Shown in pieces: positions 1 to 6,159 of a stretch of 32,000 nucleotides of DNA (position 1 is its first letter; each line of letters starts with the position of its first letter). The position numbers were made by a program, and so were the translations under genes. Origin of the DNA: Candidatus Omnitrophota bacterium (GTDB lineage: Bacteria; Omnitrophota; Gorgyraeia; Zapsychrales; JANLHA01); NCBI GenBank assembly GCA_963662715.1, contig OY759724.1, forward strand, positions 2,730,001-2,762,000, read 5' to 3'. The notes beneath the pieces were generated by a model that saw only the letters and a program-made list of their open reading frames with translations, searched no databases and was not told where the DNA came from.

Positions 1-349
1 TTTTTGCAAGCTATTCAAAAGAATGTACGGGAAATCCCCCGGGATATTCCGGCTGAATCCTCCCAATAGAATCTCTTCTCCCAAGGTAAAACAGAGACTG
101 TTTCCGGCCAGATCCTGATCAATTGCTTTTCCTGCAGGGTTTTTTCCTTACTTTAGACCTGTTTTCCTTCACTAAGATTATGAATAATGGCGTTTATTCG
201 AGAGAAATGAGTCAATAGCAAATATTTCCCATAAATGAGCAAATGCGTCCATTGAATAAATTTTAAAAGATGATATCCTTTTTTGGGTTATTAAATAGGA
301 CTTCAGACAATATGAAAAATTCCAAAAGCACATATAAACCAAACGCTGG

Positions 350-542: not shown

Positions 543-2879
543 ATGAAAAAATTATTAATTTGGATTTTAGCAATAGCTTTTGCAGCATATCCGGTGGCCG
601 GTTATGCCGAAAGCATCGCTCTTTCTGATTCAGAAATGGATGAGATTGCAGCGGGTGAATGGGTGGTTCTTGCTGAAGGCGAAACTGTTGAAGATGTTTT
701 TTTCAGCCAGAACGAACTCCAGTCCACTGACGGTTCCCTGAATGAAGTGTCAGGTTTGAGCGTTGTAAACAGTGTTGACAGTGCGGTTGCCGTGCAGGCT
801 AACGTCGGCAATTCCGAAGATTTGGCGGAAGTTGAAGCCAATCAGGCCAACGAAGCCAACGTGCTCAACATGAATCCTTCGGTTGACAACTCAACTTCGA
901 ACACGGTCACCAACATCACTGAGCAGGATCAAGTGAATGCCTGGTCCAAAGAGACATCGACAACGGTCACTTTCTCTCATGAAGATGAAAACAATACCCA
1001 GATTTACGACAATGAGCAGTCATCTTCAGCCAACAGCTCTTCCGAATCCACATCAGCGACTTTAGATGCATCCGCTTCCGGATCTGCCTCATCTCAGGAA
1101 GAGCAGTCTGGTTCAACAACAGACTCAACTCTAAACGAAAATCATACAGCCAACACAGATAACACGGCTTTCCAGTATGACTATTCGGATGACACAACTT
1201 TTGATCTGGATGCTCAAGAGCAAGATTCATCTGCTTCTACGGCTGACACTCAAGAAGAAGAGTCCACATCGGCCAGTTTAGATGTGCAGGCCGATTATTC
1301 TGACAGTGCTGCTGAACAGTCAGAAGAGTCCACATCAGCGAGTTTAGATACACAAGCTGATTATGCTAACAGTTCTGCTGAACAATCAGAAGAGTCCACA
1401 TCAGCCGGTTTAGACGTGCAGGCCGATTATTCTGACAGTGCTGCTGAACAATCAGAAGAATCCACATCAGCTAGCTTGGATACTCAATCCGAATATTCTG
1501 ACAGTTCTGCTTTTGACGCCAACGCCAGTCAATCAGCGCAGGCTGAAAGCAGCTCCCAATCAGAAGACAGCACATCAGCAACTTTGGATGCCAACCTGTC
1601 CGCTTCCGAAAGTGCATCAGAGCAGGCTGCAGCCGAAGACGCGACATCAGCTTCCTTGAACGCTGATGCGCAGTATTCTGACAGCGCAACAACGGATTCC
1701 ACAACTGATTTTTCAGCGACTGAAGGAGAAACAACAGCAAGTTCACAAAGTGTTGACGGAACTTATAATCAGACCACAGACACTTGCGCAGATTGTGACA
1801 CCTCCACAACGACTTTTGAGGGAACAGCTGCCACAAGTGACTATTCTGACAGCAAAGATTACACCGCGGGCACAACAGCCGGTACAACGGAAAACACAGA
1901 TGCTTCTGGTTCGCTTGCCGGGACATATGATGCTTCTTCGGCAGAGTCCAGTTCAGCAGAGTCCAGCAGTGAAGCCTCAGGTGGGTTAAATGCCACTTAT
2001 GATGATTCTTCTTCTGAATCCGCGAGCGAAGCTTCTTCTTCAGATGCTTCAGGATCAGTTGCTGCGTCTAATGACACAACAGCATCAGGTTCTTTGAATG
2101 CCGCTTATGATGATTCAGCTTCTTCATCTTCTTCAGAAGACACAACAGCGTCAGGTTCTTTGAATGCTTCCTACGATGATTCAGCTTCTTCTGCTGCTTC
2201 AGAAGACACGACAGCGTCCAATTCTTTGAACGCCGCCTACGATGATTCAGCTTCTTCATCTTCTTCAGAAGACACAACAGCATCAGGTTCTTTGAATGCT
2301 TCCTATGATGATTCTTCTTCCGCATCTACTTCCGAAGCCGAATCATCTGATTCTTCATCAAGCTTGGTTGTCGGTTACACAGATGCTGATTCAGAATCTG
2401 TTGCTGCTTCTCATGATGTTGCTGCATCCACAGATAATATCAACACCACAGACCATGCTGATGAACACAGCTCATCATCATCAAACAGTTTCGAAGCTGA
2501 AGGCGCTTTATCTACATCTTTTGATCATGAAGAAGAGCAGGCCTCCGAATCAGCAGAAGCCCGCAACAATGATGAATTCAAAGATGAATACGAAAAGACG
2601 GAAGTGTCTTTTGAGACAAAAGATACTGAAGCAACAACTAATGATGCTTCTCAGGTTCTCACCAACATCACTGAAACGAAAAACACAGATCGCAAGAACA
2701 AGAGTGAAAAGAATGTGTTGATCATTTCCGGTTCATCACAGTCCGGAGTCAGCTCGTTGAGCACAGTGAATGCTGTTGGTTCAGCTGTTGCCGTTCAGTC
2801 CAACGTTATTAATGCCACAGGCAGTTTGACTGGTTCTATCAACCAATCAAATATTGCGAATGTGACAAACGGTCTTTAA
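543..2879 (+). CDS. Secreted hyper-acidic Ser/Thr/Asp/Glu-rich repeat protein, candidate major fibre subunit (FapC-like role). That it is a real CDS is far better supported than its function.
   Basis: ORF 531..2879. The ATG at 543 is preceded by GAGGA. Signal peptide MKKLLIWILAIAFAAYPVAGYA. LSDSEMDEIAAG motif directly after the signal peptide. Near-duplicate motifs LSVVNSVDSAVAVQANVGNS (N-terminal) and LSTVNAVGSAVAVQSNVINA (C-terminal). About 15 acidic 22-aa repeat units. A strong terminator follows the stop. Confidence 0.8.
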   Translation: MKKLLIWILAIAFAAYPVAGYAESIALSDSEMDEIAAGEWVVLAEGETVEDVFFSQNELQSTDGSLNEVSGLSVVNSVDSAVAVQANVGNSEDLAEVEANQANEANVLNMNPSVDNSTSNTVTNITEQDQVNAWSKETSTTVTFSHEDENNTQIYDNEQSSSANSSSESTSATLDASASGSASSQEEQSGSTTDSTLNENHTANTDNTAFQYDYSDDTTFDLDAQEQDSSASTADTQEEESTSASLDVQADYSDSAAEQSEESTSASLDTQADYANSSAEQSEESTSAGLDVQADYSDSAAEQSEESTSASLDTQSEYSDSSAFDANASQSAQAESSSQSEDSTSATLDANLSASESASEQAAAEDATSASLNADAQYSDSATTDSTTDFSATEGETTASSQSVDGTYNQTTDTCADCDTSTTTFEGTAATSDYSDSKDYTAGTTAGTTENTDASGSLAGTYDASSAESSSAESSSEASGGLNATYDDSSSESASEASSSDASGSVAASNDTTASGSLNAAYDDSASSSSSEDTTASGSLNASYDDSASSAASEDTTASNSLNAAYDDSASSSSSEDTTASGSLNASYDDSSSASTSEAESSDSSSSLVVGYTDADSESVAASHDVAASTDNINTTDHADEHSSSSSNSFEAEGALSTSFDHEEEQASESAEARNNDEFKDEYEKTEVSFETKDTEATTNDASQVLTNITETKNTDRKNKSEKNVLIISGSSQSGVSSLSTVNAVGSAVAVQSNVINATGSLTGSINQSNIANVTNGL
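1257..1520 (+). repeat. Four in-frame tandem 66-nt units (22 aa, EESTSASLD[VT]QADYSDSAAEQS type) inside the acidic-protein CDS
   Basis: Units start at 1257, 1323, 1389 and 1455 (exact 66-nt spacing). Units 1 and 3 are nearly identical, and units 2 and 4 resemble each other. More degenerate copies flank them (roughly 1040-1700). Confidence 0.9.
2073..2336 (+). repeat. Four in-frame tandem 66-nt units (22 aa, DTTASGSLNA[AS]YDDSASSSSSE type) inside the acidic-protein CDS
   Basis: Units start at 2073, 2139, 2205 and 2271 (exact 66-nt spacing). They alternate in type: 1 resembles 3 and 2 resembles 4. Degenerate copies lie upstream from about 1897. Confidence 0.9.
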
Positions 2880-2890
2880 TAAGTAATAAA

Positions 2891-2928
2891 AGGGTTGGGG
2901 GGAGGCATCTCCCCTCAACCCTGATTTT
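2891..2928 (+). terminator. Strong Rho-independent terminator immediately after the acidic-protein gene
   Basis: agggttggggggag (2891-2904) pairs with ctcccctcaaccct (2909-2922) as a 14-bp GC-rich stem with one G-U wobble and a gcat loop. It is followed by gatttt. Confidence 0.75.
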
Positions 2929-2961
2929 AAATGATGGTTTTTAAAAAGGAGATGGTCTGCG

Positions 2962-3417
2962 ATGTCTAGAAAGATAGGGTTTCTACTATTAAGTGTAGTT
3001 TTTCTGAATATGATTATCAACCCTGTGTTTGCAGATGGAAACGCAGTCGTCCTGTCTGATGAAGAGTTGGATCAAGTATATGCGCAGGGATTTAATTTTA
3101 ATTTTGATGAGTTTCTGGGAAATCTGGACAGCATTCTTTCTTCTCCTGACCTAAAAGTTGATTTAGATTTAGCCAAGGGTGGAACCGTGACTTTTACCGG
3201 TGATTCCGGAGTAGAGCAGCAGATATTTGCTACAGAAACCGGTGATATCAATTATATCAATTTGCAAGATTATGCCCAGCAATTTGCCAATAGTCTGATC
3301 AATGTGAATGCCGCAGGAAGCAATGTCCTGGTCGGGTTAAATTTGACCGTCCTCGTCAATTCGGTTGTGAACGGGGACATCAAAAGTTATAATTTCAATA
3401 ACAACAGTTCCAGGTAA
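2962..3417 (+). CDS. Small secreted protein sharing leader-like and N/V/A-rich motifs with the acidic protein (candidate minor subunit or nucleator)
   Basis: AAGGAG lies upstream of the ATG. Signal peptide MSRKIGFLLLSVVFLNMIINPVFA. LSDEELDQVYAQG follows directly after it. C-terminal ANSLINVNAAGSNVLVGLNLTVLVNS and an N-rich tail. Confidence 0.7.
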   Translation: MSRKIGFLLLSVVFLNMIINPVFADGNAVVLSDEELDQVYAQGFNFNFDEFLGNLDSILSSPDLKVDLDLAKGGTVTFTGDSGVEQQIFATETGDINYINLQDYAQQFANSLINVNAAGSNVLVGLNLTVLVNSVVNGDIKSYNFNNNSSR

Positions 3418-3476
3418 AGAAGCTTTTTATACATAATCATTGCGCCCTCCTTTTCTTTCATTTAATATATATCATT

Positions 3477-4160
3477 ATGAATAATAAAATTTTTATAATT
3501 TTAAGTGTTTTTTACCTTTTTGTTGCTCCCGGCCATGCGGCTAGCATTTCGGTGGGGGGCGTCAGTATAAACAAAAAGGTCAAAAATTTAAAAGAGCTTC
3601 GTCAGGAAAATGTTGTCACGCAAAGCCTTGATTATAGTTGCGGGGCCGCGGGTTTGTCGACCCTTTTGAATTATTATTTGAATGATCCTACCCCTGAAAT
3701 CGTTATCATCGATGCCCTGCTCAAAACCATCCCTTTGCAAAAAGTGCAAGCACGCCAGGGATTCTCTTTATTCGATTTAAAGAAATTCGCGGAATCCAGA
3801 GGATACCAGGTAACCGGGTATAAGATGGACTTCGAATTTTTAAAATCCATAGGCAAACCGCTTCTTGTCCCGATAAAATTCAAGAATTACCGGCATTTTG
3901 TCGTGGTTAAAGGTGTTGTCGGTGACAGGGTTTTTATCGCCGATCCGGCCGTAGGGAATATGACAATGAAAGATGAAAAGTTCAAAGCCATTTGGACCAA
4001 CGGCATCGGCTTTGTGGTTGAGCATCCGGAAGGCTCAAGGAACGAAGATTATGCTTTGCGTATTGAAAATGAAGATGTCCGTATGGCGAATTATCAATCC
4101 TTGAAGCGTCTCACCAGTCCTGCCTGGGTCCGGACAGCAATATTTACAAACGAATGGTGA
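3477..4160 (+). CDS. Periplasmic stand-alone C39-family cysteine peptidase (FapD-like role)
   Basis: Signal peptide MNNKIFIILSVFYLFVAPGHA. C39 signature Q-x5-C (QSLDYSCGAAGLSTLLNYY), His block YRHFVVVKG and FIADPAVG. There is no ABC-transporter domain. Confidence 0.75.
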   Translation: MNNKIFIILSVFYLFVAPGHAASISVGGVSINKKVKNLKELRQENVVTQSLDYSCGAAGLSTLLNYYLNDPTPEIVIIDALLKTIPLQKVQARQGFSLFDLKKFAESRGYQVTGYKMDFEFLKSIGKPLLVPIKFKNYRHFVVVKGVVGDRVFIADPAVGNMTMKDEKFKAIWTNGIGFVVEHPEGSRNEDYALRIENEDVRMANYQSLKRLTSPAWVRTAIFTNEW

Positions 4161-4166
4161 TCTTTT

Positions 4167-5627
4167 ATGCGTTTTAACCGAATATTATCAACAATATTGG
4201 TAGTGCTTTTCGTATGCTTTTTTGGGGTCTTCGTGTCCCGGTCGCGCCTTAGATATCCGGAAATTGATTTGACCGCTATTAAAAGGCAGTTAAGGGAGGA
4301 GATTAAAGACGAATTGCGCGCCGAACTGCTGCTTGAAATGGGAGATGTCATAACCCGGGAAGTTCAAAAAGAGGTTCATCTTTATCTTGCGCAGATACAC
4401 AAGCAAAAGGCTGATACAGAAAAGTATAGCCATTTGCAGCCCTCTGCTTCCTATGATGATGCTCTTGCCCGCAATTCCCTGACCCAGCAAGAGGAAAGAG
4501 AAACGATTCGGGAGGCTATCCAGCGGACGGTACGTGACGTCGTTCAGGAATACAATGCACAGCTTTCTGATGAGGAATTAGCCGCAACCGTAGCCAGCGG
4601 CGGACTTGATCCTGCGGTGACTCTTCCGGGCAGTTTGTCAAAAACCGTACAGGATGACCCTGTCCTGTTAGCGGCGGCCGAGGCATCCGCGGGGAGCCAA
4701 AAGCAGACATCCTCTTCTCAGCCGGTTCCCGTGAATTCAAAAGACGCGACAGCCGGTTCCAATTCCGGTAAAGTTGATTCTATTGAAAGGACATTGGTCC
4801 AAAAGGGAAGCATCCTCTTGCCTAAGGGGAGATTGCAGTTTGAACCCAGCCTGACCTATGCGCATTCCTCTTCCAACCGGCTATACATCGACGGCTTTAG
4901 TATCCTTCCGGTCCTTGTGGTCGGCGATATCTCTACAGAAAAAGTGCAGCGGGACGTTTTCATTAATACCTGGACATTCAAATACGGTTTAAGGCACAAC
5001 CTGCAGACAGAAGTCAGGGTTCCTGTCCGGTTTGAATATGACCGCATTACGAACACCGACAGCACAACGTTTGACCAGACGGATAATAAAGGCGGCCTGG
5101 GCGATATCCAGGTTTCTGTGAGCCGCCAGATCGGGTGGGAACACGGTCTCATCCCGGATTTGGTCGCGAATCTATCGGTGAAGTCCAATACCGGGGATGA
5201 ACCTTACAATACGGATATTGCCTTGGGAACCGGGCACTGGGCTGTCAGCGGGGCTCTGGTTGCGGCCAAGGCCAGCGATCCTGCTGTTATTTTTGGCAGT
5301 TTGAATTATACGTATAATATCCCCCGCAGCGATATCGAAAACTACGGAAAAATAGACCCGGGAGACTCGATAGGTTACAGTTTGGGAACCGCCATCGCGT
5401 TGAGTTATCAAACAGCCATCAATTTTTCATTTGATCATTCTATTACCGATAAAATGGTCAGGAACGGCCAAAAGGTCCCCGGCTCTTTCCTGAATGCCGC
5501 TAATTTCAAGACCGGTTTTAACTGGGCTTTGAATGAACGGGCTTCCGTGGATTGTTCTCTCAGCTTTGGCTTGACTCAGGATTCTCCTGATTTCACATTT
5601 GAACTCCGTTTCCCGTATAATTTCTGA
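4167..5627 (+). CDS. Outer-membrane beta-barrel protein with an N-terminal coiled-coil-like segment and low-complexity linker (FapF-like architecture)
   Basis: Starts 6 nt after the peptidase gene. N-terminal hydrophobic segment. Charged heptad-like stretch IKRQLREEIKDELRAELLLEMGD...QKEVHLYLAQIHKQK. S/Q/P-rich linker. C-terminal half has alternating hydrophobic strands, a GGLGDIQVSV motif and an aromatic terminus FELRFPYNF typical of OMP barrels. Confidence 0.65.
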   Translation: MRFNRILSTILVVLFVCFFGVFVSRSRLRYPEIDLTAIKRQLREEIKDELRAELLLEMGDVITREVQKEVHLYLAQIHKQKADTEKYSHLQPSASYDDALARNSLTQQEERETIREAIQRTVRDVVQEYNAQLSDEELAATVASGGLDPAVTLPGSLSKTVQDDPVLLAAAEASAGSQKQTSSSQPVPVNSKDATAGSNSGKVDSIERTLVQKGSILLPKGRLQFEPSLTYAHSSSNRLYIDGFSILPVLVVGDISTEKVQRDVFINTWTFKYGLRHNLQTEVRVPVRFEYDRITNTDSTTFDQTDNKGGLGDIQVSVSRQIGWEHGLIPDLVANLSVKSNTGDEPYNTDIALGTGHWAVSGALVAAKASDPAVIFGSLNYTYNIPRSDIENYGKIDPGDSIGYSLGTAIALSYQTAINFSFDHSITDKMVRNGQKVPGSFLNAANFKTGFNWALNERASVDCSLSFGLTQDSPDFTFELRFPYNF

Positions 5628-5763: not shown

Positions 5764-6159
5764 ATGAACAGAAAGTTTTGCGCATTCTCGTTGATTCTTC
5801 TGAGCCTTGGCCTTGTATCGATCGTGAACATTGGTCAAGGGGCGGATTTAACGCGGCCTAAGGGCCAGCAGGAGAAGGAATGCCGTGTCCAGAATTGTCA
5901 CGGGCTCGAAATCCAATGCGGTTTCAGTGAACCCAAAGTGTGTACCGAGATGTATCAGTTGGGTGATTTTTGCCGCGCCTTTGCTGAATGTCGTTTTATA
6001 AAAGGTGAGTGTCAGTTTGTGAACAATGATCTTTTCCAGGGATGCAAAGACTGCGTTTTGGATTGCGAACGCAATAAAGATGAGATCAATCCGTTTATTT
6101 GTGAGGTCAAATGCCGGAAGGAATTTGAGCCGTATATTTATGGAAAACCCCTTAATTGA
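5764..6159 (+). CDS. Small secreted cysteine-rich protein, unknown function
   Basis: Signal peptide MNRKFCAFSLILLSLGLVSIVNIGQGA. 12 Cys in the roughly 100-aa mature part. I recognise no family. Confidence 0.55.
   Translation: MNRKFCAFSLILLSLGLVSIVNIGQGADLTRPKGQQEKECRVQNCHGLEIQCGFSEPKVCTEMYQLGDFCRAFAECRFIKGECQFVNNDLFQGCKDCVLDCERNKDEINPFICEVKCRKEFEPYIYGKPLN

What the first reader, a model, noticed from the sequence alone, without database searches (positions are those of the whole stretch)
543..5627. Four-gene secreted-fibre cluster resembling a minimal, highly divergent Fap functional-amyloid system
Seen: four co-directional genes with gaps of 82, 59 and 6 nt. They are (i) a 778-aa signal-peptide protein, (ii) a 151-aa signal-peptide protein sharing two motifs with (i), (iii) a signal-peptide-bearing stand-alone C39 peptidase with intact Q/C/H/D motifs (QSLDYSCGAAG, RHFVVVKG, IADP), and (iv) a 486-aa protein with a hydrophobic N-terminus, a charged heptad-like helix, an S/Q/P-rich linker and a barrel-like C-terminal half ending in FELRFPYNF. 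Established: Pseudomonas fapABCDEF encodes amyloid subunits FapB/FapC, the periplasmic C39-like FapD, and the trimeric OM channel FapF, built as coiled coil + linker + barrel. As I recall them, FapC repeats have a G[VA]N[VI]AAG..NQQ.N core. Here INVNAAGSN and VNAVGSAVAVQSN look related. Inference: this is a Fap-like fibre export and assembly system with no FapA-like gene, very few core repeats, and an enormous acidic linker. That would be an undescribed variant if the organism lies outside the known Fap-bearing Proteobacteria.
Basis: partly seen in the sequence, partly recalled or inferred. Interest (0 to 1): 0.85.

Follow-up and report, generated by a model that had tools for sequence, protein, structure and literature searches.

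The report
Fap-like secretion cluster, leader-tagged cargo
Four genes in a probable Omnitrophota genome encode a Fap-type export machine (a periplasmic cutting enzyme plus an outer-membrane pore) and two secreted proteins of a previously unnamed family that all carry the same bacteriocin-style cutting tag, which offers a testable answer to what this class of enzyme cuts.

Summary
Four co-directional genes lie at 543-5627 with gaps of 82, 59 and 6 nt, and every quoted motif is present.

ORF3 is a signal-peptide-bearing stand-alone C39 peptidase related to FapD and FilB. ORF4 is a FapF-type channel by NCBIfam (E 5e-45). Its AF2 model's best PDB matches are the FapF crystal structures (TM 0.80-0.86). 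Both score far below the equivalog cut-offs.

ORF1 and ORF2 are not detectable FapB/C/E or FilA members. They form their own cargo family: a Sec signal peptide, then a 12-residue double-glycine-type leader (L-S-D-x-E-L/M-D-x-I/V-x-A-G), then one or two copies of a 50-60-aa Asn/Gln/Ala/Val-rich module.

The same leader sits inside ORF4, between the coiled coil and the linker. The gene order cargo A, cargo B, C39, channel recurs in about 20 Omnitrophota-type loci. The cargo family also occurs in Marinobacter and Desulfobacter.

Best reading: a two-step Sec-then-C39/FapF secretion system for a polyanionic, probably self-assembling surface protein. It is a new variant of a known kind. Cleavage and amyloid formation are both untested.

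The parts
543..2879 (+). ORF1, class A cargo, 778 aa. Computed pI is about 4, with 147 Asp+Glu against 13 Lys+Arg, 22% Ser and 11% Thr. It is the probable major secreted structural protein.
   Evidence: Homologues lie upstream of the C39 and FapF-like pair in about 20 loci. No Pfam or NCBIfam family matches.
543..608 (+). ORF1 Sec-type signal peptide, aa 1-22 (MKKLLIWILAIAFAAYPVAGYA).
   Evidence: Read from the sequence. The n-region, h-region and small-residue cleavage-site pattern are conserved in class A homologues. No signal-peptide predictor was available.
621..656 (+). ORF1 double-glycine-type leader, aa 27-38 (LSDSEMDEIAAG). The predicted C39 cleavage is after G38, giving a mature N-terminus EWVV.
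   Evidence: The register matches Leu-12, Glu-8, Leu-7 and Val-4 of C39 leaders (PMC6363468).
699..884 (+). ORF1 N-proximal cargo module, aa 53-114 (..SLNEVSGLSVVNSVDSAVAVQANV..).
   Evidence: It aligns with the C-terminal modules in A3 and with the class A N-modules.
1256..1511 (+). First 66-nt (22-aa) tandem repeat array inside the acidic Ser/Thr-rich spacer of ORF1 (EESTSASLD.QADYSDSAAEQS, about 4 copies).
2073..2337 (+). Second 66-nt (22-aa) tandem repeat array in the ORF1 spacer (DTTASGSLNA.YDDSASS.SSE, about 4 copies).
2691..2876 (+). ORF1 C-terminal cargo module, aa 717-778 (..SSQSGVSSLSTVNAVGSAVAVQSNVINATGSLTGSINQSNIANVTNGL).
2891..2922 (+). GC-rich hairpin (14 bp) directly after the ORF1 stop codon. 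It is a probable intra-operon attenuator or 3'-end stabiliser that sets the ratio of cargo A to downstream products.
   Evidence: The whole 82-nt ORF1-ORF2 gap that holds the hairpin folds at -34 kcal/mol, and stable hairpin folds (-21 to -68 kcal/mol, GC-rich stems) occupy the same position in 14 of 15 loci with different stem sequences. The function is inferred.
2962..3417 (+). ORF2, class B cargo, 151 aa. It is always single-copy and sits immediately upstream of the C39 gene.
   Evidence: A profile of this family finds 128 representative clusters among 1.84 billion proteins.
3052..3087 (+). ORF2 double-glycine-type leader, aa 31-42 (LSDEELDQVYAQ, then GFNF), following the signal peptide at aa 1-24.
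3229..3414 (+). ORF2 C-terminal cargo module, aa 90-151 (..INLQDYAQQFANSLINVNAAGSNVLVGLNLTVLVNS..).
3477..4160 (+). ORF3, a stand-alone periplasmic C39 cysteine peptidase, 227 aa. The signal peptide is aa 1-21. The catalytic residues are Q49, C55, H140 and D156.
   Evidence: Pfam Peptidase_C39 3e-23. NCBIfam FilB 3e-41 and FapD 4e-32, both below cut-off. The four catalytic residues are invariant in 19 sequences, including Aeromonas FapD. The best PDB sequence hit is LahT150, a double-glycine motif protease.
4167..5627 (+). ORF4, a FapF-type outer-membrane channel, 486 aa. It comprises a hydrophobic N-terminus (aa 1-25), a long helix (aa 35-86), a disordered linker, a plug-like helix (aa 199-212) and a beta-barrel (aa 223-486).
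   Evidence: NCBIfam FapF 5e-45 and Pfam PF13557 5.5e-12. The AF2 model has pLDDT 79, and most 10-residue blocks of the barrel exceed 90. The top Foldseek hits are FapF 5o67, 5o65 and 5o68 at E 3e-24 and TM 0.80-0.86, ahead of COG4313 4rl8.
4563..4598 (+). Leader-like motif inside ORF4, aa 133-144 (LSDEELAATVAS, then GG), between the coiled coil and the Ser/Gln/Pro linker.
   Evidence: 22 of 35 homologues match the strict pattern. The AF2 model has a helix at 135-143.
5764..6159 (+). ORF5, a 131-aa secreted Cys-rich protein (13 Cys). Whether it belongs to the system is uncertain.
   Evidence: It is adjacent to the channel gene only in close relatives. No family matches.

Best explanation
This is a two-step secretion and assembly system of the FapD/FapF type with its own cargo family.

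Shown by sequence, profile and predicted structure:
- ORF1 and ORF2 begin with Sec-type signal peptides.
- Each is followed, 3-6 residues later, by a 12-residue motif whose register matches the leader recognised by C39 double-glycine peptidases: Leu-12, Glu-8, Leu/Met-7, Ile/Val-4 and Ala-Gly at -2/-1.
- ORF3 is a signal-peptide-bearing C39 peptidase with an intact Gln/Cys/His/Asp set.
- ORF4 is a FapF-like channel with a coiled coil, linker, plug helix and barrel.

Inferred:
- After Sec export and signal-peptidase cleavage, each cargo carries a propeptide of about 16-18 residues that looks like a bacteriocin leader.
- ORF3 binds this helix in the periplasm and cuts after Ala-Gly, or Ala-x-Gly in ORF2. 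That step licenses or couples threading of the unfolded cargo through the ORF4 pore.
- The copy of the leader inside ORF4 either docks the peptidase beneath the pore or is itself cut to mature or gate the channel.
- Outside the cell, the 50-60-aa Asn/Gln/Ala/Val-rich modules self-associate. ORF1 has one at each end and ORF2 has one.
- ORF2 would act as nucleator, anchor or cap. ORF1 would be the bulk subunit, and its roughly 580-aa polyanionic Ser/Thr/Asp/Glu spacer would form a hydrated, negatively charged coat or matrix.
- The hairpin after ORF1 keeps ORF1 product in excess.
For: Machinery:
- ORF3 matches C39, FapD and FilB profiles, and ORF4 matches the FapF profile.
- The ORF4 AF2 model's best matches are the FapF crystal structures.
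- The C39 catalytic residues are invariant.
- The nearest solved relatives of ORF3 are double-glycine leader proteases.

Leader:
- It is found only in ORF1, ORF2 and ORF4 in the window: 3 observed against 0.004 expected.
- It is conserved at the same place, just after the signal peptide, in cargo genes of about 20 loci and in 64 of 132 representative or related family proteins.
- Four of those carry a true GG at the A-G position.
- The register equals the published Leu-12/Glu-8/Leu-7/Val-4 recognition helix (PMC6363468).
- Weak hits of the motif go to bacteriocin and RiPP leader families: LxmA leader, BlpC and CTB bacteriocin.
- Proteins in the FapE gene position of alphaproteobacterial FapD/FapF loci carry canonical ..ELxx[MQ]RGG leaders.

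Precedent:
- FapD is periplasmic, and its catalytic Cys is needed for FapC secretion. Its target is unknown, with FapE or the FapF linker suggested (PMC5557850).
- The Neisseria NapP/NapF pair is proposed to process and export GG-leader peptides (PMC11798529).

Cargo as polymer:
- The module is a conserved domain with invariant Asn residues.
- It is duplicated at both ends of class A proteins and in the Marinobacter 398-aa protein.
- It is repeated 13 times in tandem in P0228.
- The spacer is extremely acidic and low in complexity.
- The hairpin after cargo A is conserved in position.
Against: - No cleavage, secretion or fibre has been observed. Every step after gene content is inferred.
- Position -2 is Ala, not Gly, in nearly all members. 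Position -1 is Gln, Lys or Arg in some class B proteins, including ORF2 itself, which is unusual for C39 P1 specificity.
- The module shows no significant similarity to FapB/C/E, FilA or any PDB chain.
- AF2 of ORF2 was uninformative, with pLDDT 42 from a 6-sequence alignment.
- The ORF4 N-terminus lacks an obvious signal-peptidase site, so its topology is unclear.
- The trimeric state could not be modelled.
Confidence: 0.6

Rival explanations
1. It is a genuine but minimal and divergent Fap functional-amyloid operon. ORF1 would be FapC-like, ORF2 FapB-like, ORF3 FapD and ORF4 FapF, building cross-beta amyloid fibres homologous to Pseudomonas Fap.
For: - FapD and FapF homology and the FapF fold.
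- The cargo layout of repeats separated by a variable linker is like FapC.
- The best, though non-significant, hhalign alignment to Aeromonas FapB puts N..L..[AS]Q..[IL]...VN.V.....Q.N[LI]A in one register.
- Short proteins in alphaproteobacterial loci look intermediate by eye.
Against: - ORF1 and ORF2 give no hit to the FapB, FapC or FapE models at E up to 1, while the same models hit the Aeromonas proteins used as controls.
- Module HMMs, even after iteration, and hhalign are non-significant against FapB/C/E.
- There is no gene in the FapE position.
- ORF3 and ORF4 score 111 and 154 bits against equivalog cut-offs of 330 and 700.
Confidence: 0.15
2. It uses the same secretion machinery, but the cargo does not polymerise. 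The conserved module is a secretion or retention signal recognised by the channel or the cell surface. ORF1 is then a soluble or surface-tethered polyanionic protein, for example for cation or mineral binding, adhesion or shielding.
For: - The module sits at the extreme C-terminus of every cargo, as many secretion signals do.
- Module and channel co-occur in Omnitrophota and Marinobacter.
- The ORF1 spacer is strongly acidic.
- The AF2 model of ORF2 is low-confidence, so it shows no ordered fold.
Against: - Class A proteins carry a second module near the N-terminus.
- P0228 carries 13 modules in tandem, which is hard to explain for a simple targeting signal.
- The invariant Asn/Gln positions and alternating small and hydrophobic residues are typical of stacking beta-repeats. 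This last point rests on general knowledge and is an inference.
Confidence: 0.2
3. It is a bacteriocin- or microcin-like peptide export locus of the Neisseria Nap type, in which the C39 and FapF pair processes and releases toxic or signalling peptides.
For: - Double-glycine-type leaders, and a C39 peptidase related to bacteriocin-processing enzymes.
- The Nap precedent.
Against: - The cargoes are 151 and 778 aa, acidic, repetitive and Cys-poor, not small cationic peptides.
- No immunity-like or modification gene is conserved next to the cluster.
- The cargo has a Sec signal peptide in front of the leader.
Confidence: 0.04
4. ORF4 is an ordinary MetA-pathway/COG4313 hydrophobic-compound uptake channel that merely neighbours unrelated genes.
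For: The Pfam Phenol_MetA_deg hit is above its gathering score. COG4313 channel 4rl8 is the second-best structural match.
Against: - FapF structures match much better: E 3e-24 and 27% identity, against 6e-16 and 16%.
- The FapF profile gives 154 bits against 47 bits for PF13557.
- The N-terminal coiled coil and linker are present.
- The link to a C39 gene is invariant in about 20 loci.
- C39 genes are not reported in COG4313 operons (PMC6173800).
Confidence: 0.01

Closest known systems
Pseudomonas Fap system (fapABCDEF): FapD periplasmic C39 peptidase plus FapF trimeric coiled-coil/plug/12-strand barrel exporter (Rouse et al. 2017, PMC5557850; PDB 5O65, 5O67, 5O68)
   Same: - A signal-peptide-bearing stand-alone C39 with intact catalytic residues.
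- A channel with an N-terminal long helix, disordered linker, plug helix and FapF-like barrel.
- Cargo genes upstream in one operon.
- Cargo made of conserved Asn/Gln-rich units separated by a variable linker.
   Different: - The cargo is not detectably FapB, FapC or FapE. There is no FapA and no gene in the FapE position.
- ORF3 and ORF4 are far below the equivalog cut-offs.
- Every cargo, and the channel itself, carries an explicit C39 leader motif, which the authors say canonical Fap proteins lack.
- The host is probably Omnitrophota.
Neisseria nap island: NapP (C39) plus NapF (FapF homologue) with GG-motif peptides NapA-C (PMC11798529)
   Same: A C39 peptidase and a FapF-like channel are paired with substrates that carry a double-glycine-type motif. 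The proposed order is periplasmic cleavage, then export.
   Different: Nap cargoes are cationic peptides under 10 kDa that promote autolysis. Here the cargoes are 151-aa and 778-aa acidic proteins with a Sec signal peptide ahead of the leader and a conserved repeat module.
Acinetobacter baumannii filABCDEF putative pilus system (NCBIfam FilA NF050077, FilB NF050078, FilC NF050079)
   Same: ORF3's best NCBIfam match is FilB (142 bits) and ORF4 matches FilC. FilA also has a leader-like MDDAALSAATGQ directly after its signal peptide.
   Different: There are no FilD, FilE or FilF genes. ORF1 and ORF2 do not match FilA. Scores are far below the cut-offs of 475 and 630.
Peptidase-containing ABC transporters (PCAT/AMS: PCAT1, ComA, LahT) and their double-glycine leader peptides (PMC6363468)
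   Same: The C39 fold and catalytic residues are shared. The substrate leader has Leu-12, Glu-8, Leu-7, Val/Ile-4 and a small-residue pair at -2/-1.
   Different: - The peptidase is not fused to an ABC transporter and is predicted to act in the periplasm.
- The leader follows a Sec signal peptide instead of forming the N-terminus of the precursor.
- Ala-Gly replaces Gly-Gly.
- Export is through an outer-membrane barrel.
Unannotated homologous clusters in Marinobacter (L029) and Desulfobacter (P0204)
   Same: The same cargo family (leader plus module, at significant HMM E-values) and, in Marinobacter, the same gene order of cargo, C39 and FapF-like channel.
   Different: - Marinobacter has three cargo genes.
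- Its channel has a classical signal peptide and no internal leader motif.
- These proteins are annotated only as hypothetical or transporter.

Membership tests
Fap functional-amyloid system (fapABCDEF) | FapF-type exporter: homology to FapF and the coiled-coil, linker, plug-helix and beta-barrel architecture. | tested here: met
   NCBIfam FapF E 5e-45 over aa 184-486. The AF2 model has helix 35-86, a disordered stretch at about 87-198, helix 199-212 and a barrel at 223-486. The top 18 Foldseek PDB hits are all FapF chains, at TM 0.78-0.86.
Fap functional-amyloid system (fapABCDEF) | FapF and FapD at equivalog level (NCBIfam curated cut-offs). | tested here: not met
   ORF4 scores 154 bits against a cut-off of 700. 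ORF3 scores 111 bits against 330, and ORF3 scores higher against FilB.
Fap functional-amyloid system (fapABCDEF) | Periplasmic stand-alone C39 peptidase with a catalytic Cys and His (FapD). | tested here: met
   An N-terminal signal peptide is read from the sequence. Q49, C55, H140 and D156 are invariant in an alignment that includes Aeromonas FapD.
Fap functional-amyloid system (fapABCDEF) | FapB/FapC amyloid subunits with the GN.GN..AG..NQQ.N repeats. | tested here: not met
   ORF1 and ORF2 have no FapB or FapC hit at E up to 1, while the Aeromonas controls hit at 1e-20 and 1e-50. Module HMM and hhalign comparisons against FapB and FapC are non-significant.
Fap functional-amyloid system (fapABCDEF) | FapE, an essential minor subunit encoded between fapD and fapF. 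| tested here: not met
   ORF3 and ORF4 are 6 nt apart with no gene between them. No FapE model hit was found.
Fap functional-amyloid system (fapABCDEF) | The product is a cross-beta, formic-acid-resistant fibril, and the channel is a trimer. | not testable with these tools
   No multimer modelling or experiment was available. The ORF2 monomer model has pLDDT 42.
Acinetobacter Fil system (filABCDEF) | FilA cargo plus the FilD, FilE and FilF genes. | tested here: not met
   ORF1 and ORF2 do not hit FilA. The A. baumannii control hits FilA at 3e-98. No further genes of this kind flank the cluster.
Double-glycine leader / C39 substrate class | A leader helix with Leu-12, Glu-8, Leu-7 and a hydrophobic residue at -4. 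| tested here: met
   ORF1 reads L27, E31, M32, I35. ORF2 reads L31, E35, L36, V39. Most ORF4 homologues fit, but the window ORF4 has Thr at -4. The consensus comes from PMC6363468.
Double-glycine leader / C39 substrate class | Gly-Gly, Gly-Ala or Gly-Ser at positions -2/-1. | tested here: inconclusive
   Most members have Ala-Gly. ORF2 has Ala-Gln followed by Gly. Four family members have Gly-Gly in the same position.
Double-glycine leader / C39 substrate class | Actual cleavage of the leader by the cognate C39 peptidase. | not testable with these tools
   This needs an enzyme assay or N-terminal sequencing.
Pfam PF13557 Phenol_MetA_deg / COG4313 uptake channels | Pfam gathering score reached, and the channel acts alone in hydrophobic-substrate uptake. 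| tested here: inconclusive
   The Pfam score of 46.7 exceeds the cut-off of 22, so ORF4 belongs to this broad barrel family. However, FapF is the closer structure, and the obligate C39 and cargo neighbourhood argues against an uptake role.

The most novel reading that the evidence does not exclude
The periplasmic C39 peptidase uses one leader code to process both its cargo and its own outer-membrane channel. Proteolysis would thereby mature or gate the FapF-type pore. The exported proteins would assemble, through a new class of Asn-ladder modules unrelated to Fap or curli repeats, into a polyanionic amyloid-like coat. That coat would be a major surface structure of Omnitrophota nanobacteria, possibly involved in attachment to host cells. 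If so, this clade would supply the long-missing substrate rule for FapD-type enzymes in general.
Probability: 0.2. Interest if true: 0.8.

Novelty: new variant of a known kind. Interest (0 to 1): 0.62.

Why it matters
The target of FapD-type periplasmic C39 peptidases has been unknown since 2017 (PMC5557850, PMC6173800), although the enzyme's catalytic Cys is essential for amyloid export. This cluster and its relatives carry an explicit bacteriocin-style leader on every cargo and on the channel. That turns the question into a simple peptide-cleavage and mutagenesis experiment.

The work also defines an unannotated cargo family of at least 128 representative clusters, found in Omnitrophota, Desulfobacter and Marinobacter. 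It shows that the FapD/FapF module is a general two-step secretion device with interchangeable cargo: Fap amyloid, Nap peptides, Fil proteins and this family.

For Omnitrophota, which are largely uncultured, it points to a widespread and probably abundant surface protein system.

Tried and rejected
- tRNA and Rfam scans of the window found nothing.
- Exact look-ups of the window's ORF4 and ORF2 found no contig on record, so the source organism is inferred from relatives only.
- The single-protein genome-contig scan returned only 4 loci.
- A word-indexed homology search with the module alignment returned only 9 short fragments and added little.
- The AF2 model of ORF2 had pLDDT 42, so I ran no fold search on it.
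- A PDB sequence search with the module profile gave no hits, even at E up to 10.
- Module HMMs (three versions) and hhalign against Aeromonas FapB/C/E, A. baumannii FilA and the Cupriavidus, Croceicoccus and Polymorphobacter cargo were all non-significant. I therefore rejected filing the cargo under Fap subunits.
- I considered that window bases 1-69 are the end of the AraC/PocR regulator seen upstream in L001. The C-terminal peptides do not match, so this is not confirmed.
- A literature search for 'FapD-like', 'FapF-like' and 'periplasmic C39' returned only noise. A search for FilA, FilB and FilC returned nothing.
- I found no paper linking Omnitrophota to Fap.

Full report
**Observation**

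All are on the + strand, and the gaps are 82, 59 and 6 nt. Every quoted peptide string is present. G+C content across the cluster (0.40-0.49 per kb) stays within the window's overall range. The rest of the window is housekeeping: HAD hydrolase, NAD kinase, MutY, SurE, two-component proteins, citrate synthase, M17 aminopeptidase, NfeD/SPFH and fumarase. No tRNA or Rfam family is present.

**Organism**

The exact proteins sit on one 3.36-Mb NCBI/ENA contig without a name. The nearest named ORF4 relatives (61-64% identity and below) are 'transporter [Candidatus Omnitrophota bacterium]'. One of the closest genome loci is an Omnitrophota MAG. Two MAG records are labelled 'uncultured Planctomycetales'. 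I take the host to be Omnitrophota, which is an inference.

**The machinery**

ORF3 is a Peptidase_C39 domain (Pfam 3e-23). Its best NCBIfam matches are FilB (3e-41, 142 bits) and FapD (4e-32, 111 bits), both far below the curated cut-offs of 475 and 330. It has an N-terminal signal peptide.

I aligned 16 Omnitrophota-type homologues with the Marinobacter and Cupriavidus enzymes and Aeromonas FapD. Q49, C55, H140 and D156 are invariant. Its closest solved relatives by sequence are LahT150 ('double glycine motif protease', 6mpz), PCAT1 and ComA.

ORF4 reaches the Pfam Phenol_MetA_deg gathering score but matches the NCBIfam FapF model much better: 5e-45 and 154 bits over aa 184-486, against a cut-off of 700. 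An AF2 model built on 41 sequences has mean pLDDT 79, and most 10-residue blocks of the barrel exceed 90. It shows:
- an N-terminal hydrophobic helix,
- a 52-residue helix at aa 35-86,
- a disordered region,
- a short helix at aa 199-212,
- a barrel at aa 223-486.

The 18 best Foldseek PDB hits are all FapF chains (E down to 3e-24, target TM 0.78-0.86, 26-29% identity). The COG4313 channel 4rl8 follows at E 6e-16 and 16% identity.

**Synteny**

Exact-protein look-ups, a genome scan and a metagenome scan gave 28 related loci. Every locus with enough upstream DNA shows the same order: one or two 'class A' genes (ORF1-like), one 'class B' gene (ORF2-like), the C39 gene, then the FapF-like gene. 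This holds down to 35-45% ORF4 identity.

**The cargo**

ORF1 and ORF2 match no Pfam or NCBIfam family at E up to 1. The FapB, FapC, FapE and FilA models do work on positive controls from an Aeromonas caviae fap operon and an A. baumannii fil operon.

Aligning the cargo genes of all loci reveals a common architecture.

(i) A Sec-type signal peptide.

(ii) A 12-residue motif, L-[ST]-D-x-E-[LM]-D-x-[IV]-x-A-G, starting two to seven residues after the signal peptide.

(iii) Class-specific residues straight after the motif: [DE]-W-V-V in class A and G-[FL]-N-[FL] in class B.

(iv) A 50-60-aa module with consensus NTVNLSDNAQQNLSSLVNVNAAGSVVPVLLNLVVNINSTVGNLSQSN. Three Asn are invariant, and one Gln and one Ser are nearly invariant.
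- Class B proteins have one module, at the C-terminus.
- Class A proteins have two, one near the N-terminus and one at the C-terminus ending ..VVNG[LF]. A spacer of highly variable length separates them.

In ORF1 the spacer is about 580 aa, with 21% Asp+Glu, 38% Ser+Thr and 1% Lys+Arg. It contains two 22-aa tandem repeat arrays. The whole protein has 147 acidic and 13 basic residues.

**The leader motif**

The motif has the register of C39 double-glycine leaders. ORF1 reads L(-12) S D S E(-8) M(-7) D E I(-4) A A(-2) G(-1). The published recognition consensus is Leu-12-x3-Glu-8-Leu-7. [quoted passage not shown]

After signal-peptidase cleavage the cargo would start with a propeptide of about 16-18 residues that resembles a bacteriocin leader.

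In the window, the core pattern occurs three times in all six-frame ORFs, in ORF1, ORF2 and ORF4 only, against 0.004 expected from shuffling.

An exhaustive HMMER search with a class B profile found 128 representative clusters among 1.84 billion proteins. Of the 132 proteins fetched from that search and the module-profile search, 64 match a strict leader pattern at about residue 26-37. Four of these have Gly-Gly where the others have Ala-Gly.

Short motif-containing peptides and relatives give weak hits to leader-bearing families: LxmA leader at 0.009, BlpC at 0.05 and CTB bacteriocin at 0.03. These hits are suggestive only.

Two deviations from the canonical leader remain:
- Position -2 is Ala.
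- In ORF2 and some relatives position -1 is Gln, Lys or Arg, followed by Gly.

**The leader inside the channel**

ORF4 carries LSDEELAATVAS-GG at aa 133-144, between the long helix and the Ser/Gln/Pro-rich linker. Most Omnitrophota-type homologues have L[ST]D.EL...[VI]AG there, and 22 of 35 match the strict pattern. AF2 draws it as a short helix at 135-143.

Homologues that replace the coiled coil with an FN3-like PF16656 domain lack the motif, as does the Marinobacter channel.

Rouse et al. reported four relevant points (PMC5557850; PMC6173800):
- FapD is periplasmic and its catalytic Cys is required for FapC secretion.
- Fap proteins lack canonical C39 sequences.
- The target is unknown.
- They raised FapE or the FapF linker as candidates.

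The Omnitrophota-type system writes those two suggestions out in sequence: a leader on the cargo and a leader in the channel's periplasmic region.

**Relatives outside Omnitrophota**

The Marinobacter locus reached through ORF4 homologue P0113 is not a canonical fap operon. It has three cargo genes (398, 517 and 143 aa) with signal peptide, L.D..L..ITA[AG] and the same module, followed by C39 and a FapF-like gene. The module HMM gives E 1e-13 to 3e-5 on these proteins, and the 398-aa protein has two copies.

One small family member is a 'hypothetical protein' of Desulfobacter sp.. Another, P0228, has a signal peptide, the leader and 13 tandem modules.

A tblastn search against plasmid and chromid records gave other FapD/FapF-type loci:
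- Canonical Aeromonas fapBCDEF. Its FapE reads LADGELAHLRGR after the signal peptide.
- A. baumannii fil. FilA reads MDDAALSAATGQ after the signal peptide.
- Cupriavidus. A small protein there has KLDDVRGG.
- Croceicoccus and Polymorphobacter. The gene in the FapE position carries canonical leaders LSEEVLARQRGG-IRLP and ITDYELATMRGG-IRLP.

A leader-like tag on at least one cargo therefore looks like a general property of FapD/FapF-type systems. This rests on a handful of loci and on reading the sequences.

**Is the cargo related to FapB/FapC?**

By eye there is a family likeness (N..L..[AS]Q..[IL]...VN.[AV]......Q.N[IL]A). The best hhalign alignment to Aeromonas FapB uses that register, but at probability 0.6%. 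Module HMMs, including two iterated on 125 family members, give E of 0.1 or worse against FapB/C/E, FilA and the alphaproteobacterial and Cupriavidus proteins, even in a 16-sequence database. The module profile matches no PDB chain.

I therefore do not file the cargo under the Fap subunits. Remote homology is neither shown nor excluded.

**Regulatory detail**

A 14-bp GC-rich hairpin lies 12 nt after the ORF1 stop codon (2891-2922). The whole 82-nt ORF1-ORF2 gap that holds it folds at -34 kcal/mol. Stable hairpin folds (-21 to -68 kcal/mol, GC-rich stems) occupy the same position, after the last class A gene, in 14 of 15 loci examined, with different stem sequences. I read this as an attenuator or 3'-end stabiliser that keeps cargo A in excess, as expected for a major structural subunit. 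This is an inference.

**Mechanism proposed**

1. Sec export of ORF1, ORF2, ORF3 and ORF4.
2. Signal-peptidase cleavage.
3. ORF3 recognises the leader helix in the periplasm and cuts after Ala-Gly.
4. That step is coupled to threading of the unfolded cargo through the ORF4 pore.
5. The ORF4 copy of the leader recruits the peptidase or is cut to mature or gate the channel.
6. Outside the cell, the modules associate, with ORF2 as nucleator, anchor or cap and ORF1 as the bulk subunit carrying a polyanionic spacer.

The gene content, motifs, fold and synteny are shown. Cleavage, coupling and polymerisation are inferred. The AF2 model of ORF2 was too poor to help (pLDDT 42 from 6 sequences).

**Novelty**

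The FapD/FapF pair as a 'hybrid' secretion module is known. Co-located fapD/fapF homologues in five further phyla were noted but not characterised (PMC6173800). A Neisseria C39/FapF pair with GG-motif peptides was described in 2025 (PMC11798529).

I found no description of four things in the searched literature:
- this cargo family,
- the arrangement of a Sec signal peptide followed by a leader,
- the leader inside the channel,
- the system's prevalence in Omnitrophota.

I class it as a new variant of a known kind, with moderate-to-high interest, because it makes the FapD substrate question directly testable.

Noticed in passing
window 5764-6159 (+): ORF5 is a 131-aa protein with a signal peptide and 13 Cys, and it matches no family. 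It lies directly downstream of the FapF-like gene here and in the close relatives L001, L004, L008 and L010. In L002 and L005 it is displaced by about 3.7 kb, with radical-SAM genes inserted between.
   Followed up: partly
window 4167-4241 (ORF4 aa 1-25): The channel's N-terminus is an 18-residue hydrophobic stretch followed by SRSRLR, with no obvious small-residue signal-peptidase site. Some homologues (P0043, Marinobacter P0113) have classical signal peptides. It could be an uncleaved inner-membrane anchor. In that case, cleavage at the internal leader motif might be what releases the barrel.
   Followed up: partly
window 4040-4157 (ORF3 C-terminal tail): C39 peptidases of the Omnitrophota clade share a C-terminal extension ending ..RTA[VI]F[PT]xE[FWY]-COOH. 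The extension is absent from Aeromonas FapD and from the Marinobacter enzyme. Its role is unknown.
   Followed up: no
L011 10390-10761: An orphan cargo-like gene (signal peptide, LTDTELDQITAA, then ..VHVNAVNSAVSVQTD..) lies 7.7 kb downstream of that locus's C39/FapF pair. Cargo genes can therefore be dispersed.
   Followed up: no
P0096, P0098, P0099, P0102 (ORF4 homologues): A subgroup of FapF-like channels carries a PF16656 (FN3-like) domain in place of the coiled coil. Those examined lack the internal leader motif.
   Followed up: no
P0228 (1159 aa, metagenomic): This family member has a signal peptide, the leader ALSDKQLDAITAG and 13 tandem copies of the module (..TVTLNxNAQQxAxGLNLVNAAGSxVANGVNV..), spaced about 80 aa apart. 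It gives a spurious-looking DUF4830 Pfam hit.
   Followed up: partly
window 1-69 (+): This is the 3' end of an ORF that runs off the window (..FLQAIQKNVREIPRDIPAESSQ*). A non-coding stretch of about 470 nt follows before ORF1. The peptide does not match the C-terminus of the AraC/PocR regulator that precedes the cluster in L001 and L002.
   Followed up: partly
L031 6670-7503 (A. baumannii VB1190): The filB (C39) gene of this record is split into two ORFs (143 and 130 aa) and is not annotated, so it is probably a frameshift or pseudogene in that strain.
   Followed up: no
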